64,000 nucleotides of DNA from an uncultured Gammaproteobacteria bacterium (GCA_964540635.1 CAZINP010000001.1:171263-235262); one strand, 5' to 3'. Shown: positions 3,701 through 42,926, counted from the first letter of the stretch. Program-made: numbers and translations. The notes: generated by a model from the sequence alone, not told the origin.

Positions 3701-5617
3701 TTATTTTTTAAAAAATTTATAGATAAAACCAATAGTAGCCGCCACAACGGCCGAAGCGCCGGAAAAAAAATAGCGACCAAATGATTTTTCTGAAATAGCT
3801 TTAGTTTCTTTTGGCTTAATATTTTCTTGGGAATTTTGCGCACCAAGCACTTTTGGTTTAGCCATATCTTTTTTTGTATCATCATTTTGGTTTAGAACAT
3901 TCATTTCTCCAGGTGTCGGCGTTTGGCTGTTTTGCCAAATAAAATTTTCATCCAGCACCTGGCTTTGGCCGGTTTTGCCTTTATTATAAATCACCTGGTC
4001 AATAATTTGATTATTCGGCGCCATTAATTTTATGGTATCACCGTCATTGTTTAAGGCAATTTTAGTTTGTGAGCGAAAAAAGGCCAGATATTGTCCGGGC
4101 TTGATAATTGTGTTTGGCGGAAGAATAAACGGTTTGGTTTTTGCCCCTCCGTCGCTTAGCATGAAATTGCTGAGATCATACGGTTTTGTTTCATTGGAAA
4201 AAATTTCAATGAATTCGTTGGCAGCCTCATCTTCTTTGGGATCAGCCAAAAATTCAGAAATAAAAATATTGGGCAGGTATTCCAAATTTTTTACAACAAA
4301 GCTTTCGGTTGAAGTTGAAGTATTTGGTAAAGGTGAAGTCGAAGTTGCCTTGGCGCCATCTTTAATTTTAACTTTTAAAATTTCCGTACTGCTGGCAAGT
4401 TCATCAATAATAATTTTAAGTTTTACTTCGTAGCTGCCAGGAGTAATATAAATTTGTCTGGCTCGGGAGCCAAAAGCCATTCGACCGTCGCCGAATTCCC
4501 AAACAAATTTCATTTCTCGGTTAAATTTGTCAAAACTGTCGCTGGCGTCAAAGAAAAGCGTTTCAAAAACCTCACCCGCTTCCGGACCGGTTAAATTTAT
4601 AATTGGACGCACAATGCTTTGGCAGATATTTTCTTGGCCGGGAGTCGGGCTTTGCCAGCAAAAATCATCATCGGCATTTTTATCAAGATTTTTTTGCCAA
4701 GAGGCATTGTTCATCTCGCTGTTTTTTAAACTAACTTCGTCAATGATTTTATTTTCGTTTGAATAAAGAGTAATTTTTTCTTTGGTATTGGCAATGGCAA
4801 GATTGGTTTGAGAACGATAAAAAACAACAATGGCCTGTGGCGCCAAACCAACCTCGGCAATTACGTAAGAATATTTATTGGCATTTTTGAGAATAAAATT
4901 TTTTAAGTTTATGGTTTTGTTTGAAATATTTTTAATCTCAATAAATTCATTTTTTTCCGGATTTTCAGTCGGGTTGGGAAAAATTTCATTAATAATTAAA
5001 TCGCCCTTCTTAACATCTTGAATGATAGTGGTAATCAATGGGTTTAAAAAAGAAGAAGTGGTTGTTTCTGAAGATTGGTTTGATGCTTCTTCGCCAGGCT
5101 CCTCATTTGATTCATCTGGGCCAAGTGAATTTTGAGCTTTGGGCGTGCCGCCGACTTGAGCCGATGTTTGCCAAAGGCCGTCAGTTTTTCGCTCCAAGGT
5201 ATTTTTGGTTTCATTGTCACCACCCGGCCAACTCTCAGCAGCTTCAATTTTATCAATAATGTTATTATTTTGATCGTATAAAATTAAGTTTTCGCCGGTG
5301 TTTGATAGGCTGCCGGTATAAATTTGATCGGCCGTTATTGTCGGTAGGGTTTGATCACCGGTTCTTTCCAATAGATAAAAACCGGATGCATTAATTTTAC
5401 CGGTTAAATTAATTTTAGGACTGCCGTCCTCAGCTTCCAGACGCCAGCCGGCTAAATCAACCTCTTCGCCTAACGGATTGTATAATTCCAGCCATTCGGC
5501 GTTGGCTGATTCGGTTGTGCCCATCCAGGCAATTTCGTTTATAGTTACATTCTCAGCTGCCAGGCAAATTTTTGGAAAAAATATTACCAGGGCAAAAAGC
5601 AAAAAGCCTTTTTTCAT
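3701..5617 (-). CDS. Secreted, C-terminally membrane-anchored protein with three lamin-tail (LTD) domains and a PKD-like middle region
   Basis: N-terminal signal peptide. LTD signatures repeat three times (INEIAWMGT...EWLELYNP, LIINEIFPNP...FIEIKN, FISEFLADP...FIEIFS). The C-terminal hydrophobic segment is followed by KFFKK. Confidence 0.7.
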   Translation of the reverse strand: MKKGFLLFALVIFFPKICLAAENVTINEIAWMGTTESANAEWLELYNPLGEEVDLAGWRLEAEDGSPKINLTGKINASGFYLLERTGDQTLPTITADQIYTGSLSNTGENLILYDQNNNIIDKIEAAESWPGGDNETKNTLERKTDGLWQTSAQVGGTPKAQNSLGPDESNEEPGEEASNQSSETTTSSFLNPLITTIIQDVKKGDLIINEIFPNPTENPEKNEFIEIKNISNKTINLKNFILKNANKYSYVIAEVGLAPQAIVVFYRSQTNLAIANTKEKITLYSNENKIIDEVSLKNSEMNNASWQKNLDKNADDDFCWQSPTPGQENICQSIVRPIINLTGPEAGEVFETLFFDASDSFDKFNREMKFVWEFGDGRMAFGSRARQIYITPGSYEVKLKIIIDELASSTEILKVKIKDGAKATSTSPLPNTSTSTESFVVKNLEYLPNIFISEFLADPKEDEAANEFIEIFSNETKPYDLSNFMLSDGGAKTKPFILPPNTIIKPGQYLAFFRSQTKIALNNDGDTIKLMAPNNQIIDQVIYNKGKTGQSQVLDENFIWQNSQTPTPGEMNVLNQNDDTKKDMAKPKVLGAQNSQENIKPKETKAISEKSFGRYFFSGASAVVAATIGFIYKFFKK

Positions 5618-9711: not shown

Positions 9712-9822
9712 GGCGGCTATAATGCAGTATTTGTCAGGTTTTTGACGGAATAGAATTTTGTATTTTAATAAAATTGAAGATTTGTGGTATAATTAAGGGT
9801 GAAATAAACTTAATTTTTTATT

Positions 9823-10500
9823 ATGTCATTAGTAAATCTAGGTTTAATATTTGTTGCAGGTCTTGATTTTGGGGTTGCTTTGCTAATTTATTCATTAAAT
9901 CCCAGGAATAGGAACAACATTTTAATATCTTTAACCATTCTCTCTCTGGCAGCATGGACGTTGGGAATGGGTATGTTTAGAAATGCTTATACGGAAACTG
10001 AAGCATGGATATGGGTCTGGGTACAAAATGGATTTGGTTCTATTATTCCAGTTTTTCTCTTTCTTGTGTCGATTTATTTTCCTTACCAATCAGTTAGGGT
10101 TAAGCCAAAGCATATATTATTAATTGTACTAAGTGTGGTTTGGATGTTGGTGGTCGTTGTGGTGCCAGGATTTTTAGTAAAAAATATCAAAATAGTTGTA
10201 CCAAATAATTATTATGATATGAATCGTTTGGGTATTGCATATTTTAATATCCATTTTTATTTTTACTTAGTTCTTTCATATATATTCTTTTACAAAAAAT
10301 ATGTTAAGAGTAGTGGGATTATCAGAATGCAATTAAATTATTCAATATTGAGTGCCACTACAGTTGGAATTATCGGTTCAGTTTTTGGCGCCTTAATTCC
10401 CTTAATATTTAACACTTTAGGGTATTATTGGATCGGGCCATATTTTGCCGTTCCAGCGATGTTGATATTGATAAGTTTTATTTATAAGGCTAATAAATAA
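9823..10500 (+). CDS. Stand-alone 7TM sensor-module membrane protein, paralog 1
   Basis: Six to seven predicted TM helices. Homologous to the N-terminal membrane domain of the histidine kinase at 13567-15759 and to the next two ORFs. Confidence 0.6.
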   Translation: MSLVNLGLIFVAGLDFGVALLIYSLNPRNRNNILISLTILSLAAWTLGMGMFRNAYTETEAWIWVWVQNGFGSIIPVFLFLVSIYFPYQSVRVKPKHILLIVLSVVWMLVVVVVPGFLVKNIKIVVPNNYYDMNRLGIAYFNIHFYFYLVLSYIFFYKKYVKSSGIIRMQLNYSILSATTVGIIGSVFGALIPLIFNTLGYYWIGPYFAVPAMLILISFIYKANK

Positions 10501-10520
10501 CGTTTTAATATAATTTAATT

Positions 10521-11210
10521 ATGTTAAATTATTTTTTGAGAAACTTGATTATACTCTCAAATTTGCTTACCGTAATATTTTGTTTATCTTTGGGAATCTA
10601 TAGTGTTAGACGAAGGTATGGTGATATTATAATCAGACTTTGGTTTTTTCTTTGCCTCGCCGTGTCGGTTTGGTGCGGAAGTTATATCCTATTGAATTTT
10701 TCTGACGAATCCGGCTTAGCGATGTTTTATATTAGATTGATATATATATCAATATCTTTGATACCTGTTTTATTTTTGCATTTTGTTATTAGGTATCTGC
10801 ATAGATATAGTTTTGATAGAAAGATAATTGGTTTAGGCTATATTATTTCGCTTATTTTTATTTTTTTATTTACGTTTACCAATCTAATTATTTCTGGAAC
10901 AAAGTATACATATGGGTTTGGTAGACATGAGAGTGTAAATAATTTTGCTTATTTGTTTTTTTTAATATATTTTTTTTCTTGTATTGCGTGGGCAATCATC
11001 TTGCTTTATCGTGAGTATAAAAATAGTGTCGGGGTTAAAAAGAGGCAAGTTTATTTTTTAATTTTAGCGTCATTCTTCGGTTTTGTTGGCGGGTCAACTA
11101 ATTTTATGACCAATATGTGGGGTGTCTTTCCGTATGGTCAAATGTTTGTTTGGTTGTATCCAATACTTATAACCTATGGGATATTTATGGATGAAATTAA
11201 ATTTAAATAA
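10521..11210 (+). CDS. Stand-alone 7TM sensor-module membrane protein, paralog 2
   Basis: Highly similar to paralog 3 (LGIYSVRRRYGDIIIRLWFFLCLAVSVWC vs LGIYSIRRRFNDIVIRLWFFLCIAVSVWC). The C-terminus ITYGIFMDEIKFK is identical in both. Confidence 0.65.
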   Translation: MLNYFLRNLIILSNLLTVIFCLSLGIYSVRRRYGDIIIRLWFFLCLAVSVWCGSYILLNFSDESGLAMFYIRLIYISISLIPVLFLHFVIRYLHRYSFDRKIIGLGYIISLIFIFLFTFTNLIISGTKYTYGFGRHESVNNFAYLFFLIYFFSCIAWAIILLYREYKNSVGVKKRQVYFLILASFFGFVGGSTNFMTNMWGVFPYGQMFVWLYPILITYGIFMDEIKFK

Positions 11211-11220
11211 TTTTATATAT

Positions 11221-11916
11221 ATGTCTAAAGAGTTGTTAAGAAATTTAATTTTCGTTTCTAATATTTTAACCGTTATTTTTTCTTTTTCTTTGGGCATCTA
11301 TAGCATAAGAAGAAGATTTAATGATATTGTTATTAGGCTGTGGTTCTTTTTATGTATCGCGGTTTCCGTTTGGTGTGCAAGTTACATTTTTATTATGATT
11401 TCTCCAGGTAAGGGAATTGCCAATCTTTTTTTGAGAGTGGTATATTCTGTTGCATCACTTATCCCTATTTTATATTTTCATTTTATTTCTTCTTTTCTGT
11501 TGAAAAACTACAAAAATAAAAAAACTATTTTTTTAGGTTATTTTTTAGCTTTGACTCTATTGTTTTTATCAATTTTTTCCAATTTGATTGTTATTGGCGC
11601 GAAGTATTTAGATGGATTTGGCTACACTCAGAACACAAATAAAAATGGTTTAGTTTTATTTATTATTTATTTTCTATTTTATATTTTTTTAAGTTTTCGT
11701 TTATTGATATTGGAATATTTTATTTCTATAGGTTATAAAAAAAGACAAATTTTTTTTATTCTAACGGCATCTTTGCTCGGGTTTGTCGGTGGCATGTCAA
11801 ATTTTATTTTTGATCTATTGGGAATTTATCCTTTTGGGCAAATAATAGTTTGGTTTTTTCCAGTTCTAATCACTTATGGAATATTTATGGATGAAATTAA
11901 ATTTAAAAATTATTAA
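11221..11916 (+). CDS. Stand-alone 7TM sensor-module membrane protein, paralog 3
   Basis: Start chosen at MSKELLRNL by homology to paralog 2. The ORF-track start at 11176 overlaps the previous gene. Same 7TM module. Confidence 0.6.
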   Translation: MSKELLRNLIFVSNILTVIFSFSLGIYSIRRRFNDIVIRLWFFLCIAVSVWCASYIFIMISPGKGIANLFLRVVYSVASLIPILYFHFISSFLLKNYKNKKTIFLGYFLALTLLFLSIFSNLIVIGAKYLDGFGYTQNTNKNGLVLFIIYFLFYIFLSFRLLILEYFISIGYKKRQIFFILTASLLGFVGGMSNFIFDLLGIYPFGQIIVWFFPVLITYGIFMDEIKFKNY

Positions 11917-11940
11917 TTTTAATGTAGTTATAATTAATTT

Positions 11941-13560
11941 ATGTCAATTAGCATTGATTCGATAAAAAAAATATTAGATCTAAGAAACGAAGTTTTGTTG
12001 ACCCCAGAGGCTATGGCAAAAAATTTAAAAGCAACGTTTTTGGTTTCAGACAACTTGTCCCCAGAGATTTTGAATTTTAAGAATAAGTTAGAGTTAAGTT
12101 TCACTGAGCTGGGTGTTGATGTTATTCCATACGCTAAATCTTTTGATAGAATGAGATTTAAAAATATAATAAGGAGAACCTTGCTATATTTTAAAATCAT
12201 TTTAAAGATAATAATTTCAATATTTAGAGATTTTAAAAAATTTAATCCTAAAATGCTGCCGGACAATTTTTTTCAGTTTTGTTTTGGAGGAAGTTACAAA
12301 AAAAATATTGCGATTTTTGTTTTTGGAGAGGTTGACAGTGTTTTTTATCCAATAAATCACGTAAATAATTTAAAAGATAACCCGATAATAACAGTTATTG
12401 AAAAAAAAGATGAGGTTAAAGGTGAAAAAAACTTTAATTTTCATATGGATAAGGCATTAAGTCTTTTTTCTAAGCTAATGACCAATATTGCCATCACGGT
12501 AAGTGCAGAGGCCTGGACTATTTATAGTTTTAATTTATCTCATCCAACCTATGGTTTTGATGATAACTTTAAAAATAATATATTAAATTCGTTAATCACT
12601 AAAATTTCAGCCCCAGTTGTGCCACCGAAAATGAAAGAATTTATAATAAAAGATGATAATTTTGAGCCCAATGATGAAAAATATAAATTTTATATTAATG
12701 ATATGGTCGTAGGAAGCAAATTATTAAAAGAAACTAATTTATTCCCCGAAGGTAGATTGGTCAGCGACCTAAACTTTAAAAATTATTTCTATAGATATAT
12801 AGGTGAGGTGCATTTAGATAAAAGGAATGGAATGAGTTATGGTTTTATTGCTCGTCAGTTGCCAGTTTTATTTTCTGAAGTAAAAGAGATTAGTAGTTTA
12901 GACATAAAAAAGTTTGGATTGAATGATTATTATTTTGACGATAATAATTGTTTATTTATTAAAGTGGAAGTTTTTAAAAAAGATTATGTATTGAAAGTTC
13001 CTGAAGTTTGGGTTTTAACAACAAGATCGGGTTGCGATAAAACAAACATCAACCAATCAGAAGATATAATAAAGATAGGCTTGGTGAACGGCAAAATGAT
13101 GATGGAATTGCCAACAAATTTCCAGAGAAAACAAAATTATAGGCCATCATTTGATACTAGGATAATCTTAGCGCATGCAGTAAGTAATGCAATTTTTGGT
13201 TCGATTATTAACAAATTTAATCCCGGGTCTGATTTCGCTGTTAATTTGGGTAAGTCTGGCATGGCAATTGTTCATTGGCATGGTTATATAAATAATAATT
13301 TTTTACCAAAAGGTTTCATTGTATATGGAAAAAATAATCCTTCTGTATCTTGTTCTGCGCTACAAACATCTATTTATGCTATGCAACAAAAAGAGCATTT
13401 AATTGTACCGCTTATAGAAAAAAATGAAGAATATGTGGGTGATTTCCATATTGAACCACAGCATGGCGTAAATGTTGTTTATGATGGTATTGTTAATTTG
13501 GCAAAATTTTTATTATCAGATAAAAACATTTCAGAATTAGGCAATAAGTATTTTAATTAA
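11941..13560 (+). CDS. Hypothetical protein (539 aa), no recognisable motifs
   Basis: Long intact ORF with coding-like composition, sitting between the 7TM paralogs and the kinase. Confidence 0.5.
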   Translation: MSISIDSIKKILDLRNEVLLTPEAMAKNLKATFLVSDNLSPEILNFKNKLELSFTELGVDVIPYAKSFDRMRFKNIIRRTLLYFKIILKIIISIFRDFKKFNPKMLPDNFFQFCFGGSYKKNIAIFVFGEVDSVFYPINHVNNLKDNPIITVIEKKDEVKGEKNFNFHMDKALSLFSKLMTNIAITVSAEAWTIYSFNLSHPTYGFDDNFKNNILNSLITKISAPVVPPKMKEFIIKDDNFEPNDEKYKFYINDMVVGSKLLKETNLFPEGRLVSDLNFKNYFYRYIGEVHLDKRNGMSYGFIARQLPVLFSEVKEISSLDIKKFGLNDYYFDDNNCLFIKVEVFKKDYVLKVPEVWVLTTRSGCDKTNINQSEDIIKIGLVNGKMMMELPTNFQRKQNYRPSFDTRIILAHAVSNAIFGSIINKFNPGSDFAVNLGKSGMAIVHWHGYINNNFLPKGFIVYGKNNPSVSCSALQTSIYAMQQKEHLIVPLIEKNEEYVGDFHIEPQHGVNVVYDGIVNLAKFLLSDKNISELGNKYFN

Positions 13561-13566
13561 AATTAA

Positions 13567-15759
13567 ATGTTTACGGGCTTTAATTATTTTAATATTTGTT
13601 TGTTGTTTGGGGGCATAGTCGCCCTGGCTGCTGGTTTTGTTGTTTTTATTAGGAATAAAAATAATAAGGTTAATCAATCTTGGTTACTTGTTACGATTTC
13701 AACGGCTTTTTGGGGTTTTGGTTATTTCGCAATGATTAGCACGTTCGATAAAACCATATCGTTATATGCAAACTGGTTCTTGCATTTTTCTGCCATTTTA
13801 GTTCCACCATTATTTTTTAGATTTATTTTGAGGTTGACAAATAATATTAAAAATTATAAAAAATCACTTTTTATAATTTATTTGTTTGCCCTGGCTTTTT
13901 TAATTATCAACCCGACTAAACTTTTTGTTGTCGACGTAAAACCTAAATACATATTTCCTTATGTATGTGATGCCGGCCCACTATATATTTTATTTGCGCT
14001 TTATTTTTTCTCAGTTGCCTCGGTTTCTTTATACGTTCTCTTGTTAACTATAAAAAAATCAACCGGCGTGTATTATCAACAATTAAAATTAGTATTTATT
14101 TCTTCATTTTTTGGTTTTGCTGGTGGAGGGAGCGTTTTTCTTTTGACTTTCAATATTCCTTTCCCTCCTTATCCGATAATTTTATTCAGCTTATACCCTG
14201 TTGTTATTAGTTATTCTATCTTGAAGTATAGATTTTTAGATGTTAGATTGGTGATAGCCCGTACAATAATATTTGGTTTATTTGTTGGATTGTTAACTTT
14301 TACTTACTCGGTAATATCTGCTTTTATTGCAAGTTATTTTGAAAATTTAATTGGGTTCAATTCATATATTTTAACCGGTGTTGTTGTATCGTTTTTGGTA
14401 ATAACAGGATATGCTCCTCTTAAAAAAATCCTTGAAAGGTTGACAAGCAAATTCCTTTTTAAAACTACATATAATCCCGACATTGTTCTTTCTGACATCT
14501 CAAACGTCGCCTCTTCAATTGTTGACCTCCGTCAGCTATTAGCTTCAATTTCAAATATTCTTGATTCTGCTTTTCATTGCGAAAAAATTGCAGTGGCAAT
14601 GTTGGATAAAGAAGGAAAATTATATCTGGCTCATCAGCAGGGGTTTGATCCAGACGCTTTGAAAAATTTCACCATGGGCAAGGAGCAGGTTTTGCCGGCA
14701 TACTTCAGTTCAAGTCATGAAGTTCAGGTAATTGATGAATTAAAAACCAGATATGAAGCCGGTGAATATCAGCCCAAAAGCGTTGAGTTGCTTGACTCTT
14801 TGTATGGTATGGACATTGCTTTGGTGGTTCCGCTTTTTGTTAAAGATGAAATGATTGGCGTATTTGTGCTTGGTAATAAAAAATCGGGTGAACCGTACAG
14901 TCATCAAGATTTGAATATTATAAAAATTATTGCCGGTCAATCAGCCATTGCCATTGAGAATGCGAGTTTGTATGATGAATTGAAAGATTACAACGTTAAG
15001 CTTGATCAGGAAGTAAAAAAGAAAACCGCGGAGTTGCGCAAGGCTAATGAAGAATTAAAGCAATTGGATGAGGCTAAGTCTGAGTTTATTTCCATTGCTT
15101 CCCACCAACTGCGCACGCCGTTGACGATTATCAAGGGTTATATTTCTATGATGTTGGAAGGGAATTTTGGCAAAGTGCCGGTTAAGATTAATGATAATTT
15201 GAAAAAGGTTTTTAGTGCCAATGAGCGTTTAATTAATTTGGTGGAAAATCTTTTGGATATTTCGCGCATTGAAAGCGGGCGCCAAGAGTTTAATTTTTCG
15301 CGAGCCAGGCTTGAAGATATGGCGGCGGTTGTTGTTGATAATTTTAAAAATAATGCCAAGGATAAAAAGTTGATTTTGATTTTTCATAAGCCAAGTTCTC
15401 CTACGCCGGAAGTTAAACTTGATGCCGATAAAATCCATGAAGTAATGATGAATTTTGTTGATAACGCAATTAAGTACACCAAAAAAGGAAAAGTTGAAGT
15501 CTCAGTTCAAGCTAACGACGGCCATGTTACTTATTGCGTTAAAGATAATGGCATGGGCATATCTTCGGAAGTCATGCCGGTATTGTTTCAAAAATTTTCT
15601 CGTGGCAAAGGCAGTTTTAGAAGTCATACCGAAGGTTTGGGTCTTGGGCTCTATGTGGCCAAGATGATGATTGATGCGCACAAAGGAAAAATCTGGGCCG
15701 AAAGTGACGGTGAAGGCAAGGGGTCAAGATTTTGTTTTTCCTTGCCGATTGTTAAATAG
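13567..15759 (+). CDS. Sensor histidine kinase: 7TM sensor module + GAF-like region + HisKA + HATPase_c
   Basis: N-terminal 7TM domain homologous to the three upstream ORFs. H-box SHQLRTPL. G-box GLGLGLYVAK. No response regulator adjacent. Confidence 0.85.
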   Translation: MFTGFNYFNICLLFGGIVALAAGFVVFIRNKNNKVNQSWLLVTISTAFWGFGYFAMISTFDKTISLYANWFLHFSAILVPPLFFRFILRLTNNIKNYKKSLFIIYLFALAFLIINPTKLFVVDVKPKYIFPYVCDAGPLYILFALYFFSVASVSLYVLLLTIKKSTGVYYQQLKLVFISSFFGFAGGGSVFLLTFNIPFPPYPIILFSLYPVVISYSILKYRFLDVRLVIARTIIFGLFVGLLTFTYSVISAFIASYFENLIGFNSYILTGVVVSFLVITGYAPLKKILERLTSKFLFKTTYNPDIVLSDISNVASSIVDLRQLLASISNILDSAFHCEKIAVAMLDKEGKLYLAHQQGFDPDALKNFTMGKEQVLPAYFSSSHEVQVIDELKTRYEAGEYQPKSVELLDSLYGMDIALVVPLFVKDEMIGVFVLGNKKSGEPYSHQDLNIIKIIAGQSAIAIENASLYDELKDYNVKLDQEVKKKTAELRKANEELKQLDEAKSEFISIASHQLRTPLTIIKGYISMMLEGNFGKVPVKINDNLKKVFSANERLINLVENLLDISRIESGRQEFNFSRARLEDMAAVVVDNFKNNAKDKKLILIFHKPSSPTPEVKLDADKIHEVMMNFVDNAIKYTKKGKVEVSVQANDGHVTYCVKDNGMGISSEVMPVLFQKFSRGKGSFRSHTEGLGLGLYVAKMMIDAHKGKIWAESDGEGKGSRFCFSLPIVK

Positions 15760-15780
15760 ATTTTCTAACGGTTAATATTT

Positions 15781-16281
15781 ATGAAAATAGCTATTGCTTC
15801 AGATTCGCATGATAATTTGCCTAATATTGAAAAATTTTTAGATTGGGTGAATAAAAATAAAATTGAGATGATTATTCACTGCGGCGATTTAGCGGCACCG
15901 GCAGTAATCAAAAAAGAATTGGCGCCAAATTTTTCGGGACCAATTCATTTTATTAACGGCAATGTGGCTGACAGGGAATTAAATGAAGAAGTGGCAAAAG
16001 ATTTTAACCATGTTTTTTTTCATCGTGATTTGGGCAAGATTGAAGTTGATGGAAAAAAAATCGCTTTTGTCCATTTCCCTTGGGCTGCCAAAGATTTGGC
16101 CGAAGAAGGCAAGTTTGATTTAATTTTTTATGGTCACGACCACAAGCCTTGGGAAGAAATGATAGGTAAAACCAGATTGTTGAATCCGGGAACGTTGGCC
16201 GGCATGTTTAACAAAGCCACTTTTGCGGTGTATGATACAAAAACCGATAAGGCGCAATTAATTTTATTGGAAACGATTTAG
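15781..16281 (+). CDS. Metallophosphoesterase (YfcE/MJ0936-like)
   Basis: DSHDN, GDL and GHDH motifs. 166 aa. Confidence 0.8.
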   Translation: MKIAIASDSHDNLPNIEKFLDWVNKNKIEMIIHCGDLAAPAVIKKELAPNFSGPIHFINGNVADRELNEEVAKDFNHVFFHRDLGKIEVDGKKIAFVHFPWAAKDLAEEGKFDLIFYGHDHKPWEEMIGKTRLLNPGTLAGMFNKATFAVYDTKTDKAQLILLETI

Positions 16282-16313
16282 TTAAATAAAAAATACGGCC
16301 GAAAATTCGGCCG

Positions 16314-16655
16314 TTAGTAAGCCGGCTGCCTTTGGCCGGCTTCTTGCATCAAGGCAATCATTTCGTCCAGGAAAAATCCCTGAGACGGATTTTTTTCTTT
16401 TAACCGTTGAGCCAAATCAAGTGCGGTGCGACCGGCGTAGTCGCGCACATGCACATTGATTTGCCAGACGGCAACCAGATCTTCAACCGCTTCGCAGATG
16501 AATTGCTCCACAGCAAAGTGAAGCAAGGTTTTGCCGGTTTGGGGATCACAAGCGTGAACGAGCTCATTCTGGTTAATGAACAGGCAGTCGCTTTTGATCT
16601 CTTCCCAAACGTCATCCCAAAGCCCATTACGGGCAAACTCAAAGACGATAATCAT
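16314..16655 (-). CDS. Ankyrin-repeat protein (GC-rich gene)
   Basis: GKTLLHFAV and GRTALDLA ankyrin signatures. GC visibly above background. Hairpin ACGGCCG-aaaatt-CGGCCGT overlaps the stop. Confidence 0.65.
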   Translation of the reverse strand: MIIVFEFARNGLWDDVWEEIKSDCLFINQNELVHACDPQTGKTLLHFAVEQFICEAVEDLVAVWQINVHVRDYAGRTALDLAQRLKEKNPSQGFFLDEMIALMQEAGQRQPAY

Positions 16656-17530: not shown

Positions 17531-17572
17531 AAAAGGGCTCCGAAGCGCGGGGCGCTCCGAAGCCTGAATCGT
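17531..17572 (-). terminator. Strong minus-strand intrinsic terminator: 13-bp stem GGCTTCGGAGCGC/GCGCTTCGGAGCC followed by CTTTTTTATTTATTT
   Basis: Derived by reverse-complementing the plus strand. The stem has two G-U pairs and a CCC loop. Confidence 0.6.
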
Positions 17573-17940
17573 CGGGGGTGAGATAATGAGCGGTGGGGAA
17601 GAAATTCCCCTACGTGTGGCCGGATGGCCACTTGCGACCGAACAGTCGGCGCAAAGTGTTCATTCCTGGATCCTCCTTACCCTGGGGGGGTGCGCCGTGT
17701 CGTCAGGCGGCCGCTTCGCCGTTCTTCTTCGAGGTGTTGCTGCCGAGGTTCGCGCCGTGCCGGGGATTCTTCGCTTTGCGGCGGGCGTGCTTCGTGGTGC
17801 CAAGGTTCGCGTTGCGGCTGTGCATATTGGGGGTCTCCTTGCGTTTTGGCTTTGCCAATCCTTGTTAGCTGCAGCACTACCTGGCTGCCACCATTATCTG
17901 AATGGTGTTGCCTTCAAGCAACGTCCGTAAAGCGGAAATT
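17573..17940 (-). ncRNA. GC-rich roughly 400-nt element with no coherent ORF; candidate structured ncRNA of unknown family
   Basis: Overlapping short ORFs in several frames on both strands. Low-complexity translations. Internal roughly 60-nt imperfect tandem duplication (CGCGAACCTYGGCA...CACGG). Ends at the terminator above. Contains AAGGAGG-N8-ATG leading into a 17-codon ORF. Confidence 0.3.
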
Positions 17941-18343: not shown

Positions 18344-18922
18344 ATGCCCAAGGTGTTTGTTCTTTTTGTCTTATGTATTGCCAACATCTCCTGTGCGCAG
18401 GAGGTGGGTGTTGCCCCAGATGAGTTCTTGAAGGCTTGCCGCCAAGGGTTCCGTGCCGATTACGGTTCTGACTCGGCTGCCGCGGAGTTGGGTTGGGGAA
18501 CGTGCGAAGTTCTTTATAGTGATCGCGAGGTTGTAAACTCGCTAAGCTATGAGGAATGGGAGGCACTTCCTCGGCAAGCACCTGAAAAGGTTGCCGCCGA
18601 TTTGCCCAACACCCCTGTGGCCAGAACTGTCACGGCCAGCTGGTATGCGTGGACTGACGGCAAAGTCTTGAACGTGGTCTACAACTGCGTTTGGGGTAAT
18701 GCCGAAAAGGAATTGGTCCATGGCTGCGCCACCGGCAACGAAGAGGCTGATCGCTGGGGGGCATCCTCCAACCGCCATTTCTATGGCAAAGGCGATCGAT
18801 TTTGGTACCAGGCCAACCGGCCTTGTGTGACCAAGATCTGGCTGGGTGCTCCCGGCCAAAACGCCAAAGAGACGCTCCGGCTTCGGCTGGAGCAACTCAA
18901 AAAGCTTCGGGTGATCAAATAA
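18344..18922 (+). CDS. Secreted Cys-rich protein of unknown function (GC-rich gene)
   Basis: Signal peptide MPKVFVLFVLCIANISCA. At least eight Cys. GC visibly above background. Opposite-strand ORFs here are GC artefacts. Confidence 0.55.
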   Translation: MPKVFVLFVLCIANISCAQEVGVAPDEFLKACRQGFRADYGSDSAAAELGWGTCEVLYSDREVVNSLSYEEWEALPRQAPEKVAADLPNTPVARTVTASWYAWTDGKVLNVVYNCVWGNAEKELVHGCATGNEEADRWGASSNRHFYGKGDRFWYQANRPCVTKIWLGAPGQNAKETLRLRLEQLKKLRVIK

Positions 18923-19006
18923 CCCCGAAGTCCCCGCGCAAAAAACACGCCCCTGTCTTCTCTGAAGGCAGGGGCTTAAACGTTGATCAAATTTTTAATT
19001 AGAATT

Positions 19007-22000
19007 TTACATTTGAGGATCAGGCGGTGGCGGTGGTGTCGGCGGATTGGTATTTGGATTGCAGGCATTCCAATCATTATTTCTATAGGTGCAAGGTTCG
19101 TCTGCGTTGTCTCGGTCCCTTGTGTCGACATGAACCAAACCACATCCCTCTTCAACATCTTCGGCAACTTCTTGTTCCGAATCGGTACATTCACGAATTA
19201 TATTCATTTTAGTGCCGGTGCGGCAACTCTCTATTCGATTTATTAAAGTTTCAACAGCAGGGACGTTGCAGGTTGTTGAATTATCAGAACCGGTTGAACA
19301 GCATTTCATATCTAAAGCTATTCCCGGGCCATGGTTTGGCCCATCATTGGCCCTATATGAAGTGCCAATAGTGCAACCGGGTGGCAAGATATCACAACCA
19401 TTGCTATTATCGCCATCGATGCAATCAAAGATTTCTCTAACATTTTCTAAAAATTCTTTGGTCCCGGTAATTGATGAAACATTGGGGTAGGTGGGTAAAC
19501 CGTTAACTCCCATAGTATACATTTCACTCCCATCATCTTTTAAGGTTATATCTGGATTAAAACACTTTTTGCATGCTTCAATATTATTTGGTCCACCGGC
19601 CGCACCAACAACCTCACAAAGACATTTATCGTTTGCGCGGCAAGCCTGATCTTGACCTAAGTCAGGGCAAGACCCTTCTTTGGCTACCAGCACTCTAACG
19701 TTGGTACCAATATATGGGTTATCATCGGCCGGACCGTAAATTCTTTCGGCGCAATTATCCGGGTTCTCGCCGCAAATTACCAAATCTTCACCTTTAAGTT
19801 CTCCGGGTTTTGTTGTGCCGTATTTATCTTTTTTGGCATTACACGTCAGGGTACCCCAAAAAGGAATTGTTTGCACTTTTTTACCCGAGAGCAGCTTGTT
19901 TTTTTTCAGCCTGTCTATTGGCCTATCTCCCGCACCGCCACCGGCGGCGATTTTAAAATCCGATTGAATTAAGCTTTCGTTGGCAAAACAATTTGGAACG
20001 AGCCCGCAAACCTCATCAACCCTTTGATCATAAAGAGTGTCGTAATTTATTGCGTCCTTGGGGATGGATAAAGCGATGTAATTAAAACACTTTGCGATAC
20101 CTTTTTCGCTTAGCAGTTCAGAACAATATTTTAGACTATTGGAATTACTGAAAGCTCTATCGGAACGTCGTTGAATTTCCATTAAATCAATTAAAGAAAG
20201 AGATTTGTTATAAATTAAAACCTCATCAATTGCGCCTTTAAAGTAAACTTGATTACGCCCGGCATCGCCTTTGCTGAATTCTTGCAATCCCGCCAACGAA
20301 GCAGCCTCTGAACCATCGCCAATAAAACCAAAACGGGTCAGGCTGCTGCCAAGCGGTTTATTGTGATGAACGTTTGCTATAGTTGTATCTTCTTTTCCGT
20401 CAATATAAAGTGATTTTTGACCCAGCGCGTAATTGTAAACACCGCAAACGAAATGCCATTGGTTATCATTTAGGTTATTTGTCTTGCTGTACAAATCATT
20501 AACGGAATTATCTTGAGCCGAGTGAGTTGAAAAACCAAGTTTACCGCTTGGGGTAACAAAAAGATTGTAGTATTCAGATCGGTCAAAATCAATTAGCGCC
20601 CAGTTATCAAAATCACCGCCGGTATTTTCGTTAGTCTTAAATCTGGCGCAAACCGTTAGTTCGTTGATTGAACTAATGCTGCCGCAATATTGCATGTTTA
20701 AAGCCAGGTAGTCGTTGTTGCCGTCAAAAACAATTGCTTTGTCGCCCAAACCGTTTGTAAAAACAGGGTTGGTCATGGCTTGTATCGGGTTGCTGGCCCC
20801 ATCCAAGCCGAAGAAATAAGTTTTGATATTATTACCACTTGTATCAAGAATGGAATTATTAAAATTGAAAGCGGCGATTAACCCTTGTGAGTTTTTGGCC
20901 GGCAATGGATTGCAATTGCTCAGGTATTGGCCGATTAAAAATGAGTTGTTCCAGAGCTTGAGGTTTTTGATAAAGCCTCCTTTTAACCCTTGTTGCCAAA
21001 CGCCGGACATACCGATAATCGGCCGCCCAAAATTTTTGGCAATGCCGTCTTTTTTTTCCGGCGTGTTAGTGCTGTATTCGTTGTTGTCAATCAGAATCGA
21101 CATTTCTTGAGTATTTTTATTAAAACTGCCGCTGATTTTTACCCATTGATTAAGCGGCACCTGGCTTTGATCGGCCGTAAAGATAAAGCGGGTGTTGCCG
21201 GTGTTGGCGTAAACTCTAACTTTACCGTTAGGCATTATGGCCAAAGCATTGGCGCTGCTTAAAGTGACATAGTCGGTATAGATTGTATAAGGCGAGTTCA
21301 CGTCAATGGGGTAAGAAGTCAAATAAACTTCGGCTTCAATGGTAAAAGCATCGGTTAAATTCAGTTTTTGCAGTTCGGTATGATTGTTGATCCTCAAGCG
21401 GCCGTATTCGCCGGTTGATTTATTATCAAAATACAAAAATTTTTCAGTTGAGGTTGTGGGGTGGGCGTTTTTTTGTCCGTTTTCATATATATTTTTAATT
21501 TCTTCATCGCTTAATTTTCGATCGAAAAAAGCGACTTCATCAATTTGGCCTTCAAAAGATCGGTTCTCGGTTGGGTTGGCCTGATTGCCGATTCTAAATC
21601 GGGGCGTGAGGCCGCCCGGGGAGCTGTATTCGCCCAAGCCTATCAATTGGCCGTTTAAATAACCGTAAACGATTTTTTTGCCGTCTTTCTCTTCCCAGGA
21701 CATAACCAAGTGATACCATTGGTTAAGCTCGGCTCCTTGTTTTAGGGTAATAGTTGTGCCGTATTGTTTTAGTGTGTCATCGCCTTTAACCACTCGAAAA
21801 CGGCCGGATGTTAACCATTGAATATAATATCTGTCAGAACCGGAACCAACACCCTGGATAATGTAACCGGCGTTATTATTCGCAGTTGGATAAGCCCAGG
21901 CGCTGATAGTGCCGGATTTAGGGTTGATTTTTGTATCAACTTTGCTGATATCTAGATATTGTCCAAAAGAACCAAAGCTGCAGCCTTGGCCGATAAAACC

Positions 22001-22417
22001 CGGATTATCAAGACAATTAATGCCGCCTTGCGCCACGGCCGAGAAATTATTGCCCGAGTCGTCATTTAAATTATTGTTCAGTTTCCAGTACCCAATCAGT
22101 CCCGTTAAAGTGGCCGGATAATCATTAGCGGTTTGATTTATGCTTTCCCAAAAAACTTTATTCCCATCCATGGTGGCACTTAAATTTTTGATTGAGCCGG
22201 TACTCAAAACGGTTGTTCCGGCGCCTTCGTTTAAAGAAAAACTTATCAATGGCGAGTTAAGAAAATCAGTTGATATCCTGCTTTGTCTAAAAAGAAATAT
22301 TGAATATAGAGACGAGACAATCAAAAAAGAAGTTAAAACTGTTGTTCCAAGAAAAATAAAAATCACCAGACTTGTATTGGTGATCGACCTGGTTAAAACT
22401 CCAGTAATTTTTTTCAT
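19007..22417 (-). CDS. Giant (1136-aa) surface protein with multiple LamG (concanavalin-A-like jelly-roll) domains and a Cys-rich, proline-tailed C-terminus
   Basis: N-terminal signal anchor. Repeated LamG patterns (GYWKLNNNLNDDSGNN...WYHLVMSW...YLNGQL; AAFNFNNSILDTSGNN...WHFVCGVYN...LYIDGK). C-terminal 300 aa with many Cys, ending PPTPPPPPDPQM. Confidence 0.75.
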   Translation of the reverse strand: MKKITGVLTRSITNTSLVIFIFLGTTVLTSFLIVSSLYSIFLFRQSRISTDFLNSPLISFSLNEGAGTTVLSTGSIKNLSATMDGNKVFWESINQTANDYPATLTGLIGYWKLNNNLNDDSGNNFSAVAQGGINCLDNPGFIGQGCSFGSFGQYLDISKVDTKINPKSGTISAWAYPTANNNAGYIIQGVGSGSDRYYIQWLTSGRFRVVKGDDTLKQYGTTITLKQGAELNQWYHLVMSWEEKDGKKIVYGYLNGQLIGLGEYSSPGGLTPRFRIGNQANPTENRSFEGQIDEVAFFDRKLSDEEIKNIYENGQKNAHPTTSTEKFLYFDNKSTGEYGRLRINNHTELQKLNLTDAFTIEAEVYLTSYPIDVNSPYTIYTDYVTLSSANALAIMPNGKVRVYANTGNTRFIFTADQSQVPLNQWVKISGSFNKNTQEMSILIDNNEYSTNTPEKKDGIAKNFGRPIIGMSGVWQQGLKGGFIKNLKLWNNSFLIGQYLSNCNPLPAKNSQGLIAAFNFNNSILDTSGNNIKTYFFGLDGASNPIQAMTNPVFTNGLGDKAIVFDGNNDYLALNMQYCGSISSINELTVCARFKTNENTGGDFDNWALIDFDRSEYYNLFVTPSGKLGFSTHSAQDNSVNDLYSKTNNLNDNQWHFVCGVYNYALGQKSLYIDGKEDTTIANVHHNKPLGSSLTRFGFIGDGSEAASLAGLQEFSKGDAGRNQVYFKGAIDEVLIYNKSLSLIDLMEIQRRSDRAFSNSNSLKYCSELLSEKGIAKCFNYIALSIPKDAINYDTLYDQRVDEVCGLVPNCFANESLIQSDFKIAAGGGAGDRPIDRLKKNKLLSGKKVQTIPFWGTLTCNAKKDKYGTTKPGELKGEDLVICGENPDNCAERIYGPADDNPYIGTNVRVLVAKEGSCPDLGQDQACRANDKCLCEVVGAAGGPNNIEACKKCFNPDITLKDDGSEMYTMGVNGLPTYPNVSSITGTKEFLENVREIFDCIDGDNSNGCDILPPGCTIGTSYRANDGPNHGPGIALDMKCCSTGSDNSTTCNVPAVETLINRIESCRTGTKMNIIRECTDSEQEVAEDVEEGCGLVHVDTRDRDNADEPCTYRNNDWNACNPNTNPPTPPPPPDPQM

Positions 22418-42425: not shown

Positions 42426-42833
42426 TTAGATTTTTGGCTTGTGCACGTGCCGGAGCACGGCTTCAACCCAAGCCTGTGAAAACGGCGGCGGCAGCCAGGC
42501 GGCAAAATGCTGGTGCACCACTTCCAGGTTGCCAAGCAAATCCGGCTCAACGTCGCTGACTACCACTGTTGGCGTCTCAATGTTGTGTCGATTCCGCAGG
42601 CTTTTAAGGAAGTTAACTCCCTGACCTTTTTTTTGTCCGTCTGTGAGATCAGAGGACATGAATATAATGTCGATGGGCGAATCACCTTCCATTGCCCTGG
42701 TAATTTCTCCCCGAATCGCATAGCAATCAGGTTCGGTAGAAACAAACATCTTGTACCCCAAAGTTTCCAGGGCACTTTTTATCTTTTCCACTTGATGTGG
42801 AAGGAGTGCGAGAAGAATCTTTTTCTTTTCCAT
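42426..42833 (-). CDS. Single-domain receiver (CheY-like) protein with degenerate acidic pocket
   Basis: Receiver-like pattern (IDIIFMSSDLTDGQ...FLKSLR), but the N-terminal DD pocket is replaced (ILLALLPHQ). The 3' end is GC-richer. Confidence 0.45.
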   Translation of the reverse strand: MEKKKILLALLPHQVEKIKSALETLGYKMFVSTEPDCYAIRGEITRAMEGDSPIDIIFMSSDLTDGQKKGQGVNFLKSLRNRHNIETPTVVVSDVEPDLLGNLEVVHQHFAAWLPPPFSQAWVEAVLRHVHKPKI

Positions 42834-42926
42834 GTTGTTGGCGTTTCTCCAAGTTGCAAGCCAAGTTTAAGGAACACAAGTAAAAATATTACACGAAAAT
42901 AATAATTTTGTCAAGAATAAAAAACC

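What the first reader, a model, noticed from the sequence alone, without database searches (positions are those of the whole stretch)
9823..15759. Three tandem stand-alone 7TM sensor-module genes homologous to the N-terminal domain of a downstream orphan histidine kinase
ORFs 9823-10500, 10521-11210 and 11221-11916 each encode only a 7TM module of about 225-245 aa. The HK at 13567-15759 carries the same module fused to GAF-like, HisKA and HATPase domains. Paralogs 2 and 3 are near-identical in blocks and share an identical C-terminus (ITYGIFMDEIKFK), indicating recent tandem duplication. Stand-alone copies of a kinase input domain could act as decoys or co-sensors, modulating the kinase by hetero-oligomerisation. 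No response regulator is adjacent. A degenerate receiver-like protein lies at 42426-42833. An uncharacterised 539-aa protein sits between the paralogs and the kinase.
Basis: seen in the sequence. Interest (0 to 1): 0.55.

Follow-up and report, generated by a model that had tools for sequence, protein, structure and literature searches.

The report
Stand-alone 7TM receptors beside orphan kinase
Three small membrane proteins that each copy only the seven-helix sensor part of a neighbouring histidine kinase form, together with an unknown enzyme and that kinase, a gene cassette that recurs across the tiny-genome Patescibacteria and may be a self-contained chemical sensing (possibly signal-making) unit.

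Summary
The core observation holds. ORFs 9823-10500, 10521-11210 and 11221-11916 are complete stand-alone HisKA_7TM (PF16927) proteins. The gene at 13567-15759 is a HisKA_7TM-GAF-HisKA-HATPase kinase. No receiver domain is found in the 64 kb window.

Three details fail:
- Copies 2 and 3 are 52% identical, an old duplication rather than a recent one.
- The stand-alone genes are not copies of the local kinase's sensor. They belong to two conserved stand-alone subfamilies (T1-type, T2-type).
- The 'receiver-like' ORF at 42426 has no support.

The main result is context. The same layout recurs in Patescibacteria: 1-4 stand-alone 7TM genes, then a variable enzyme slot, then a 7TM-GAF kinase. About 11 of 12 evaluable arrays show it. 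Elsewhere the slot holds LuxI/FeeM-type N-acyl synthases, a BioF/Kbl/CqsA-family enzyme, PlsC+HAD or methyltransferases. Here it holds the 539-aa protein. That protein belongs to an unannotated family whose gene abuts a 7TM kinase gene in 72 of 84 loci (median gap 2 bp).

Best reading, inferred and not shown: the stand-alone modules are accessory co-receptor subunits of the kinase. The complex would sense a hydrophobic small molecule made or modified by the slot enzyme, as in CqsA-CqsS or LuxM-LuxN. I rate this a new variant of a known kind, of moderate-to-high interest.

The parts
9765..9793 (+). Promoter-like site (TTAATA-17-TATAAT with TG extension) 30 bp upstream of T1
   Evidence: Consensus scan; sequence read. 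A pattern match only, not shown to be functional.
9823..10500 (+). T1: stand-alone HisKA_7TM protein, 225 aa, of the 'T1-type' subfamily (motifs WxWVQNGSG, YFNxHFYFY, GPYWIGPYF)
   Evidence: Pfam PF16927 at 30.0 bits, GA 28.6. It has 224-227 aa homologues P0250-P0262, some named by NCBI 'histidine kinase N-terminal 7TM domain-containing protein'. It scores 347 bits on the T1-type HMM, which was built with T1 itself among its 14 seed sequences.
10521..11210 (+). T2: stand-alone HisKA_7TM protein, 229 aa, of the 'T2-type' subfamily (motifs IPxLFFHF, GFVGG, ITYGIF)
   Evidence: Pfam at 66.9 bits. AF2 model with pLDDT 93 shows 7 TM helices plus a beta-hairpin in the TM4-TM5 loop. It lies in an all-stand-alone clade.
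11221..11916 (+). T3: stand-alone HisKA_7TM protein, 231 aa, T2-type, an old tandem paralogue of T2
   Evidence: Pfam at 37.2 bits. It is 52% identical to T2. T2 and T3 are each other's closest relatives. The start at 11221 fits homologue N-termini.
11941..13560 (+). X539: conserved uncharacterised 539-aa protein, a putative metal-dependent enzyme, in the variable 'enzyme slot' of the cassette
   Evidence: No Pfam, NCBIfam or PDB sequence match. There are 262 relatives among GTDB species genomes. Invariant or near-invariant residues include H412, H445, H447, C471, H503, E505, H508, D375, D405, K367 and S363. AF2 pLDDT is 92. Fold similarity to class II aldolases is weak. A 7TM kinase gene follows within -59..+23 bp in 72 of 84 loci.
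13567..15759 (+). Orphan sensor histidine kinase, 730 aa: HisKA_7TM (12-226), two further hydrophobic helices (about 231-285), GAF (320-465), HisKA (503-571), HATPase_c (619-728)
   Evidence: Pfam domains. H-box SHQLRTPL, N-box DNAIKYT, and G-boxes DNGMGI and GLGLGL were read from the translation. Its 7TM module clusters with those of kinases that follow X539 genes.
15781..16281 (+). Metallophosphoesterase (YfcE-like, 166 aa), last gene of the putative operon
   Evidence: Pfam Metallophos_2 at 94.8 bits. It starts 21 bp after the kinase gene. The same gene follows the kinase in the syntenic locus L163.
16295..16314 (.). GC-rich hairpin with flanking T/A runs, a terminator-like site closing the operon
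   Evidence: Terminator scan, (8 pairs, 6 G-C). A pattern match only.

Best explanation
9823-16281 is one operon of a cassette type that recurs in Patescibacteria. The layout is an array of stand-alone HisKA_7TM receptor modules (here one T1-type and two T2-type), then a variable enzyme slot (here X539), then a 9-TM HisKA_7TM-GAF histidine kinase. Here a metallophosphoesterase follows.

The stand-alone proteins are intact. They have a receptor-like seven-helix bundle and belong to two old dedicated subfamilies. They most likely act as accessory co-receptor subunits that associate in the membrane with the kinase's own 7TM module. In that role they would set what the kinase senses, or its threshold.

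The sensed molecule is most likely a hydrophobic, membrane-partitioning small molecule that the slot enzyme makes or modifies. This is the logic of synthase plus polytopic receptor kinase pairs such as CqsA-CqsS and LuxM-LuxN. X539 may also contact the kinase directly.

Shown: domain identities, subfamily structure, conserved gene order, tight X539-kinase coupling, and the enzyme families in related slots.

Inferred: physical association of the 7TM proteins, the nature of the ligand, any signal-synthase role for X539, and the output pathway (the regulator is encoded elsewhere).
For: - Domains and intactness.
- Operon signs: intergenic gaps of 20, 10, 24, 6 and 21 bp, a promoter-like site and a terminator-like hairpin.
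- Recurrent cassette: the window; L163 with full synteny; L161/L162; L164; L083, L085 and L099; L166-L169; L001, L004, L012, L058 and L138.
- Most arrays contain both T1-type and T2-type genes, in most cases T1 first.
- Arrays accompany only the long GAF kinases among X539-linked kinases: 4 of 6 versus 0 of 40, p = 9e-5.
- Kinases with 2-3 fused HisKA_7TM modules are common among relatives, about 35 of 156.
- The T2 model has pLDDT 93. Its best PDB matches are GPCR bundles at E 4e-4 and TM 0.53-0.64.
- G171 is invariant and Q176 nearly invariant in the TM5-TM6 loop across all three module types. I place that loop on the cytoplasmic side by the positive-inside rule.
- Slot enzymes elsewhere: Autoind_synth at 45 bits (GA 24) and FeeM at 40 bits (GA 27) in L168; FeeM in L166; a BioF/Kbl/SPT/CqsA-family enzyme plus ICMT/PEMT in L161; PlsC + HAD in L083 and L099; an acyl-ACP-reductase-like protein in L167; methyltransferases.
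- X539-kinase coupling: 72 of 84 loci, median gap 2 bp, 18 overlaps.
- Precedent: CAI-1 binds in the CqsS transmembrane domain, and the synthase CqsA binds and inhibits the kinase (PMC13174287).
Against: - No interaction was tested.
- The fused multi-7TM kinases are not fusions of T1/T2-type modules. All their modules score best as the generic kinase type, so the fusion argument is only generic.
- X539 belongs to no known signal-synthase family. Its only structural lead (class II aldolase fold: E 9e-4, TM 0.45) is not backed by sequence (hhalign versus AraD, probability 0.4%).
- X539 also pairs with short kinases that lack arrays and GAF. It also occurs without any kinase in Ignavibacteriota, Bacteroidota and Thermoplasmata, where an SDR gene precedes it. 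It may therefore be a metabolic enzyme rather than a signalling one.
- Some slot genes look like housekeeping genes, for example a true NadE in L167.
- At least one T2-type gene (L082) has no kinase within 8 kb downstream.
- No regulator or output is known.
Confidence: 0.45

Rival explanations
1. The stand-alone 7TM proteins work independently of the kinase, as separate receptors, transport or flipping devices, or membrane scaffolds for the slot enzymes. They handle the same lipid-like substrate. The kinase merely monitors that substrate or the membrane state, for example during scavenging and remodelling of host lipids by these lipid-auxotrophic bacteria.
For: - Slot and neighbouring enzymes are rich in acyl and lipid chemistry: PlsC acyltransferase upstream of X539 in 42 loci; PlsC + HAD, ICMT/PEMT and an acyl-ACP-reductase-like protein.
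- A solitary T2-type gene exists without a nearby kinase (L082).
- T1-type proteins have very strongly conserved polar motifs (QNGSG, YFNxH), which would suit a site of their own.
- The three module types differ in the residues conserved within each type.
Against: - The module family is otherwise known only as a kinase input domain (Pfam PF16927; PMC5847659).
- Arrays track the long kinase type specifically across cassettes whose enzymes differ completely. That pattern fits a partnership with the kinase better than one with any single enzyme.
- No transporter or enzyme fold match was found. The best matches are receptor bundles.
Confidence: 0.25
2. The stand-alone modules are pure decoys. They bind and sequester the ligand, or form dead-end dimers with the kinase's sensor, damping signalling.
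For: - They have the same fold family as the kinase sensor and lack any output domain.
- They are co-transcribed upstream of the kinase.
- Several copies per kinase would give a stoichiometric excess.
Against: - Decoys would be expected to resemble the local sensor. Instead, T1 and T2/T3 are old, separately conserved subfamilies at only about 14-25% identity to the kinase module.
- Most arrays contain both a T1-type and a T2-type gene, which suggests defined, non-redundant subunits.
Confidence: 0.1
3. The adjacency is incidental or reflects only shared regulation. The 7TM genes, X539 and the kinase have unrelated functions and are linked merely by operon packing in a small genome.
For: - Patescibacterial genomes are compact with long co-directional gene runs. 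Flanking genes differ between loci.
- Some slot genes are housekeeping, such as NadE.
Against: - The array-slot-kinase order is kept while everything around it changes, across relatives sharing under 50% identity.
- Only X539 and the kinase are conserved around each other in 80 loci.
- The statistical association with kinase type is strong.
Confidence: 0.08
4. The three ORFs are remnants of a disrupted multi-7TM kinase gene, that is, pseudogene fragments.
For: Kinases with 2-3 fused HisKA_7TM modules exist.
Against: - Each ORF has its own ATG and stop and covers the whole domain model.
- Intergenic gaps are 10-24 bp with no kinase-domain remnants.
- Same-length orthologues (218-232 aa) occur in many metagenomes, and NCBI names some T1-type homologues.
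- About 28 divergent cluster representatives form an all-stand-alone clade.
- The modules of fused kinases are of a different type.
Confidence: 0.01

Closest known systems
HisKA_7TM (Pfam PF16927), the N-terminal seven-helix sensor region of histidine kinases
   Same: T1, T2, T3 and the kinase N-terminus all match the model over its full length above the gathering score. The T2 model shows seven helices; I infer N-out/C-in topology from the positive-inside rule.
   Different: The family is defined and discussed as a kinase input domain (PMC5847659). Here three copies have no kinase or any other output domain, and they form two dedicated stand-alone subfamilies. Only two papers in the library mention the domain, and neither passage shown discusses stand-alone forms.
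Auxiliary membrane proteins of histidine kinases ('three-component' systems: LiaF-LiaS, YycH/YycI-WalK, SaeP/SaeQ-SaeS, UhpC-UhpB, BceB-BceS; from general knowledge)
   Same: Small membrane proteins are encoded in the kinase's operon and are proposed to tune the kinase through membrane-level contacts.
   Different: Those accessory proteins are unrelated in sequence to their kinase's sensor. Here they are paralogues of the sensor module itself and come in arrays of 1-4 genes, mostly mixing two types, with an enzyme slot between them and the kinase. No interaction has been shown here.
Autoinducer synthase plus polytopic receptor kinase pairs (CqsA-CqsS, LqsA-LqsS, LuxM-LuxN)
   Same: - A biosynthetic enzyme gene sits next to a multi-TM kinase with no adjacent regulator.
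- Hydrophobic ligands are sensed inside the TM domain, and the synthase CqsA binds the kinase directly (PMC13174287; PMC3285556).
- Related cassettes carry a LuxI/FeeM-type enzyme (L168, L166) or a BioF/Kbl/CqsA-family enzyme (L161) in the slot.
   Different: - The window's slot enzyme X539 belongs to no known synthase family.
- The L161 enzyme scores below the CqsA equivalog cut-off (190 versus 428 bits).
- The kinase is not a hybrid kinase with a receiver.
- The TM sensor belongs to a different family.
- The known pairs, as far as I know, have no arrays of stand-alone sensor paralogues.
LIC10906 family membrane proteins (NCBIfam NF047679), a named family of membrane proteins that T2 and T3 weakly match
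   Same: T2 and T3 give weak partial matches to this model, the only NCBIfam hits they have.
   Different: T2 and T3 score 21 and 27 bits against a cut-off of 200. They are not members.
Class II aldolase / adducin-head fold (RhuA, FucA, AraD, YgbL), as a lead for X539 only
   Same: The best Foldseek PDB hits of the X539 model are RhuA (E 9e-4, probability 1.0), YgbL and a Thermoplasma class II aldolase domain. X539 has an invariant HxH pair and further invariant His, Glu, Asp and Ser-Gly-x-x-Lys residues. From memory, these resemble the zinc and phosphate sites of that family.
   Different: There is no Pfam or PDB sequence match. hhalign against E. coli AraD gives probability 0.4%. TM-score is only about 0.45. 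X539 is twice the size, with an extra N-terminal alpha/beta domain.

Membership tests
HisKA_7TM (PF16927) | Full-length match to the Pfam model above the gathering score (28.6 bits) | tested here: met
   T1 30.0, T2 66.9, T3 37.2 and the kinase 60.3 bits, each covering about positions 3-215 of 224. T1 is only just above threshold, but its own subfamily is consistently annotated PF16927.
HisKA_7TM (PF16927) | Seven transmembrane helices | tested here: met
   The AF2 model of T2 (pLDDT 93, pTM 0.90) has seven TM helices plus a beta-hairpin between TM4 and TM5. T1 and T3 were not modelled and are inferred from the alignment.
HisKA_7TM (PF16927) | Located at the N-terminus of a histidine kinase | tested here: not met
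   T1-T3 end 7-13 residues after TM7 and carry no HisKA or HATPase domain. The feature is met only by the 730-aa kinase. T1-T3 are therefore domain-family members with a stand-alone architecture.
LIC10906 family membrane protein (NF047679) | Score at or above the curated cut-off of 200 bits | tested here: not met
   T2 21.4 bits, T3 26.9 bits, T1 no hit.
Classical two-component sensor kinase (HisKA/HATPase_c) | HisKA and HATPase_c domains with H, N and G boxes | tested here: met
   Pfam HisKA 59.9 bits and HATPase_c 93.2 bits. The SHQLRTPL, DNAIKYT, DNGMGI and GLGLGL motifs were read in the translation.
Classical two-component sensor kinase (HisKA/HATPase_c) | Cognate response regulator encoded next to the kinase | tested here: not met
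   No receiver domain is found in the 64 kb window. Only 2 of 64 related X539-kinase pairs have one within 3 kb.
Autoinducer synthase / receptor kinase pair (CqsA-CqsS, LuxM-LuxN type) | An adjacent gene belongs to a known autoinducer-synthase family | tested here: not met
   In the window, X539 has no family match. In related cassettes the slot holds Autoind_synth/FeeM proteins (L168 at 45.3 bits versus GA 24; L166 FeeM at 29 versus 27) or a BioF/Kbl-family enzyme (L161; CqsA model at 190 bits, below the 428 cut-off).
Autoinducer synthase / receptor kinase pair (CqsA-CqsS, LuxM-LuxN type) | The kinase senses the synthase's product through its transmembrane domain | not testable with these tools
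   This needs ligand identification and kinase assays. The only data here are a polytopic sensor (7+2 TM) and tight gene coupling.
Class II aldolase/adducin superfamily (for X539) | Sequence-profile match to Aldolase_II, or to a solved family member | tested here: not met
   No Pfam hit for any of 25 family members. No PDB sequence hit. hhalign of the family profile against E. coli AraD gives probability 0.4%.
Class II aldolase/adducin superfamily (for X539) | The same fold, with the metal-binding His triad in equivalent positions | tested here: inconclusive
Known anti-phage defence systems (PADLOC) | Match of any operon protein to a defence-system model | tested here: not met
   The only hit is a generic HATPase match of the kinase at 35 bits. 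There is nothing for T1-T3, X539 or the phosphoesterase.

The most novel reading that the evidence does not exclude
Patescibacteria carry a diversifying family of self-contained chemical-communication cassettes. A swappable biosynthetic enzyme makes a lipid-like signal. A multi-subunit, GPCR-like receptor, built from T1-type and T2-type stand-alone 7TM proteins plus the 7TM-GAF kinase, detects it. X539 would then be a new class of signal synthase or signal-modifying enzyme that docks on its kinase, as CqsA does on CqsS. The system could serve symbiont-symbiont or symbiont-host recognition in organisms otherwise nearly devoid of two-component signalling.
Probability: 0.22. Interest if true: 0.85.

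Novelty: new variant of a known kind. Interest (0 to 1): 0.6.

Why it matters
Candidate Phyla Radiation bacteria have the lowest histidine-kinase content of the groups compared in one subsurface survey (PMC10805038), and how they sense hosts or each other is largely unknown. A kinase cassette that stays conserved across many of their lineages is therefore likely to be important to their lifestyle.

The layout has three parts: sensor-module paralogues as separate genes, a swappable enzyme slot, and an orphan kinase.

- It offers a natural system for asking how polytopic sensor domains combine and what they bind.
- It puts a testable hypothesis on an abundant unannotated protein family (X539, 262 relatives among species genomes).
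- The LuxI/FeeM-like and CqsA-family enzymes in sister cassettes point to possible small-molecule signalling in bacteria for which my literature searches found no such system described.

Tried and rejected
- **Fragments of a broken kinase.** Rejected: the ORFs are complete, same-length orthologues are widespread, and there are no kinase remnants.
- **Recent duplication or gene conversion of T2/T3.** Rejected: 63% DNA identity with saturated synonymous sites. Only the last 27 nt are identical. In a 28% GC gene encoding a family-wide motif, that is weak evidence.
- **Stand-alone genes as copies of the local kinase sensor.** Rejected by the tree and the type-specific HMMs.
- **Direct fusion ('Rosetta stone') between T1/T2 types and kinases.** Not found: the modules of 2x and 3x 7TM kinases are all of the generic kinase type.
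- **Receiver-like ORF at 42426-42833.** No support.
- **Defence system.** No PADLOC support.
- **X539 as a class II aldolase by sequence.** Not supported.
- **Literature.** Searches for LIC10906 and for Patescibacteria with quorum sensing gave nothing relevant.
- **GC-rich patch 17540-17930.** The Rfam scan found nothing.

Full report
**1. What is in the sequence.**

Between 9823 and 16281 six genes lie on the + strand, separated by gaps of 20, 10, 24, 6 and 21 bp.
- T1 is 9823-10500 (225 aa).
- T2 is 10521-11210 (229 aa).
- T3 is 11221-11916 (231 aa).
- X539 is 11941-13560, a 539-aa protein.
- The kinase is 13567-15759 (730 aa).
- A 166-aa metallophosphoesterase is 15781-16281.

A promoter-like site with an extended -10 lies at 9765-9793. 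A GC-rich hairpin at 16295-16314 closes the run. Both are pattern matches only.

Pfam assigns T1, T2 and T3 a single full-length HisKA_7TM (PF16927) domain each. The scores are 30.0, 66.9 and 37.2 bits against a gathering score of 28.6. The kinase is HisKA_7TM + GAF + HisKA + HATPase_c, and its H, N and G boxes are intact in the translation.

T2 and T3 are 52% identical. T2 aligns to the kinase N-terminus at 25% identity with E 8e-14. T1 is not significantly similar to the kinase by BLASTP, so its homology is visible only with profiles.

A receiver-domain profile finds nothing in the whole window at E<=1, and there is no second kinase. The best hits of the proteins are all from Patescibacteria of the Parcubacteria type.

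**2. The stand-alone genes are real genes of old, dedicated families.**

A profile of T2/T3-type proteins was searched against 1.84 billion cluster representatives and gave 5376 hits at E<=0.001. The best 150 hits plus 6 close homologues break down roughly as follows:
- 36 are complete stand-alone proteins of 260 aa or less.
- 46 are single-module kinases.
- About 35 carry two or three tandem HisKA_7TM modules, mostly fused to (GAF-)HisKA-HATPase. P0100 and P0125, for example, are 3x7TM-GAF-kinase proteins.

In a neighbour-joining tree of 207 modules, T2 and T3 fall in a clade of about 28 members that are all stand-alone. T1 groups with stand-alone genes from other loci. The kinase's module groups with the modules of other kinases that follow X539 genes.

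A second search recovered T1's own family, P0250-P0262. These proteins are 224-227 aa long and share strongly conserved motifs (WxWVQNGSG, YFNxHFYFY, GPYWIGPYF). NCBI names some of them 'histidine kinase N-terminal 7TM domain-containing protein'.

T2 and T3 are each other's closest relatives. Their DNA is only 63% identical, and third-codon positions at conserved residues are close to random. The duplication is therefore lineage-specific but old. The identical C-terminus is a subfamily-wide motif. The 'broken kinase' alternative is excluded.

**3. Fold of the module.**

The AlphaFold2 model of T2 has pLDDT 93 and pTM 0.90. It shows seven TM helices and a beta-hairpin in the TM4-TM5 loop. By the positive-inside rule, which I read from the sequence, the N-terminus is outside and the C-terminus inside.

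Its best PDB matches are class A and class C GPCR bundles, at E about 4e-4 and TM-score 0.53-0.64. I read this as a generic receptor-like seven-helix arrangement, not as evidence of homology.

One glycine is invariant and one glutamine nearly invariant in the TM5-TM6 loop across T1-type, T2-type and kinase modules. I place that loop on the cytoplasmic side.

**4. The context is the main finding.**

X539 has no Pfam, NCBIfam or PDB sequence match, yet it has 262 relatives among GTDB species genomes.

In 72 of 84 loci that contain it, a HisKA_7TM gene starts within -59 to +23 bp of its stop. The median gap is 2 bp and there are 18 overlaps. No other window gene is conserved around the pair.

The exceptions are mostly non-Patescibacteria (Thermoplasmata, Ignavibacteriota, Bacteroidota). 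In the Ignavibacteriota and Bacteroidota loci examined, an SDR gene precedes X539 and no kinase follows. A PlsC-type acyltransferase lies upstream of X539 in 42 loci.

**5. Arrays of stand-alone 7TM genes recur upstream of 7TM-GAF kinases, with different genes in between.**

| Locus | Stand-alone array | Slot genes | Downstream |
|---|---|---|---|
| L163 | T1-like, T1, T2 | X539 | kinase 730 aa, Metallophos, Inositol_P, DUF167 (full synteny with the window) |
| L161/L162 | T1-type x3, T2 | BioF/Kbl-family PLP enzyme, unknown protein, ICMT/PEMT methyltransferase | kinase 758 aa |
| L164 | four 7TM genes | acyl-ACP-reductase-like / Shikimate_DH-fold protein, NAD synthase | kinase 748 aa |
| L167 | four 7TM genes | acyl-ACP-reductase-like / Shikimate_DH-fold protein, NAD synthase | 7TM protein cut by the contig end |
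| L083, L099 | T1, T2 | PlsC acyltransferase, HAD hydrolase | kinase |
| L166, L168 | 2-3 7TM genes | SAM methyltransferase, LuxI/FeeM-type N-acyl synthase | kinase |
| L169 | one 7TM gene | B12-radical-SAM enzyme, aldehyde dehydrogenase, NAD-epimerase | kinase |
| L085 | three 7TM genes | methyltransferase-like protein | 7TM protein cut by the contig end |
| L001/L138, L004, L012, L058 | 1-3 7TM genes | X539 | kinase |

- In L168 the N-acyl synthase scores 45.3 bits on Autoind_synth (GA 24) and 40.4 bits on FeeM (GA 27).
- In L166 it scores 29 bits on FeeM (GA 27).
- By my count, about 11 of 12 arrays with enough flanking sequence have such a kinase one to four genes downstream. L082 is the exception.
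- Type-specific HMMs show that most arrays contain both a T1-type and a T2-type gene, in most cases T1 first.
- Among X539-linked kinases with at least 3 kb of upstream sequence, arrays accompany 4 of 6 long (GAF-containing) kinases and 0 of 40 short ones. Fisher p = 9e-5.
- Receiver genes are almost never nearby, in 2 of 64 pairs.

**6. Interpretation.**

Three things are shown:
- The three ORFs are intact stand-alone members of two conserved subfamilies of a kinase sensor module.
- They form, with a variable enzyme slot and a 7TM-GAF kinase, a cassette conserved across divergent Patescibacteria.
- X539 is the kinase's most constant partner.

What follows is inferred. The stand-alone modules most likely serve as accessory co-receptor subunits that associate with the kinase's own 7TM module. 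Three observations support this. They track the kinase rather than any particular enzyme. They come as defined types rather than as copies of the local sensor. Kinases with several fused modules show that multi-module sensors work.

The fusion argument is only generic, however. The fused modules are not of T1 or T2 type.

The slot enzymes are biased toward acyl and lipid-derived small-molecule chemistry. They include LuxI/FeeM-type enzymes and a BioF/Kbl-family enzyme; the CqsA autoinducer synthase belongs to that family. This suggests that the cassette senses a hydrophobic product of its own slot enzyme.

The closest known logic is that of CqsA-CqsS, LqsA-LqsS and LuxM-LuxN. In the CqsA-CqsS system the ligand binds inside the TM domain, the regulator is encoded elsewhere, and the synthase CqsA was recently shown to bind and inhibit the kinase (PMC13174287). 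The near-universal 2-bp spacing between X539 and its kinase would fit such a direct partnership.

A serious rival is that the 7TM proteins and enzymes handle scavenged lipids, and the kinase only monitors that process.

**7. X539 itself.**

The AF2 model is confident, with pLDDT 92 and pTM 0.92. The family has an invariant or near-invariant set of His, Cys, Asp, Glu, Ser and Lys residues: S363, G364, K367, D375, S403, D405, H412, H445, H447, C471, H503, E505 and H508. That pattern points to a metal-dependent enzyme.

The best PDB fold matches are class II aldolases: RhuA at E 9e-4, probability 1.0, TM about 0.45, with YgbL and a Thermoplasma domain weaker. The SGxxK, SxD, HxH and distal His pattern resembles that family's phosphate and zinc sites, but that comparison is from my memory.

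Sequence-profile tests fail, and deeper fold libraries were unavailable. The assignment stays a lead, not a result.

**8. Novelty.**

The domain family is known, and NCBI already names some stand-alone members. Only two papers in the searched library mention HisKA_7TM, and neither passage shown discusses stand-alone forms, arrays or this cassette. My searches on Patescibacteria or CPR with quorum sensing or histidine kinases did not surface this cassette.

Candidate Phyla Radiation bacteria are reported to have the lowest kinase frequencies (PMC10805038), which makes a widely conserved kinase cassette notable. I class the finding as a new variant of a known kind, namely kinases with accessory membrane partners or synthase-receptor pairs. 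The mechanism is unproven.

Noticed in passing
window 11941-13560; loci L001-L080, L137, L138, L163: The 539-aa protein belongs to a large unannotated family with 262 relatives among GTDB species genomes and no Pfam match. The fold is predicted with confidence, and the family has an invariant His/Cys/Asp/Glu set. In Patescibacteria its gene is almost always fused in gene order to a HisKA_7TM kinase. In the Ignavibacteriota and Bacteroidota loci examined it follows an SDR gene instead. It also occurs in Thermoplasmata archaea.
   Followed up: partly
window 10200-14600: GC content drops to 0.26-0.31 across T1's 3' part, T2, T3, X539 and the membrane part of the kinase, against about 0.38-0.42 in the flanks. 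Membrane-protein codon bias explains part of this, but X539 is soluble. The dip may mark the cassette as laterally acquired.
   Followed up: no
window 11181-11207 and 11881-11907: The last 27 nt of T2 and T3 (ATATTTATGGATGAAATTAAATTTAAA) are identical, although the genes are otherwise 63% identical. This could be a short conversion tract, a nucleotide-level signal before the next start codon, or simply AT-biased codons for a conserved motif.
   Followed up: partly
proteins P0100, P0104, P0108, P0113, P0114, P0117, P0125 and about 28 others: Histidine kinases with two or three tandem HisKA_7TM modules in one polypeptide, spaced about 270 aa apart, are common among relatives. I found no description of this architecture in the papers searched.
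   Followed up: partly
L168 3160-3894; L166 2685-3449; L161 8338-9561: Patescibacterial cassettes carry a LuxI/FeeM-type N-acyl synthase (Autoind_synth at 45 bits) or a BioF/Kbl/SPT/CqsA-family PLP enzyme directly upstream of a 7TM-GAF kinase. These are candidate quorum-sensing-like synthase-receptor pairs in CPR bacteria.
   Followed up: partly
window 17540-17930: A GC-rich patch (about 0.54 against about 0.40) sits between the inositol monophosphatase gene and the DUF167 gene. It holds several overlapping implausible ORFs on both strands and has no Rfam match even at E<=1. It may be an unrecognised structured RNA or a foreign insert.
   Followed up: partly
window 18344-18922: A 192-aa ORF in a second GC-rich stretch (0.55 at 18600-19000) has no Pfam match.
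   Followed up: no
window 60356-60478 (- strand): A SAM riboswitch (RF00162) scores exactly at threshold, 44.5 against 44.4 bits. It overlaps a + strand ORF (60006-60497), which is therefore probably spurious.
   Followed up: no
window 3701-5617 (-) and 19007-22417 (-): Two large proteins carry repeated domains: one has lamin-tail and PKD domains, the other (1136 aa) has three Laminin_G_3 domains. From general knowledge, such domains are typical of Patescibacteria cell-surface proteins.
   Followed up: no
An overlapping + strand ORF (42507-42902) exists, so the coding strand itself is uncertain.
   Followed up: partly
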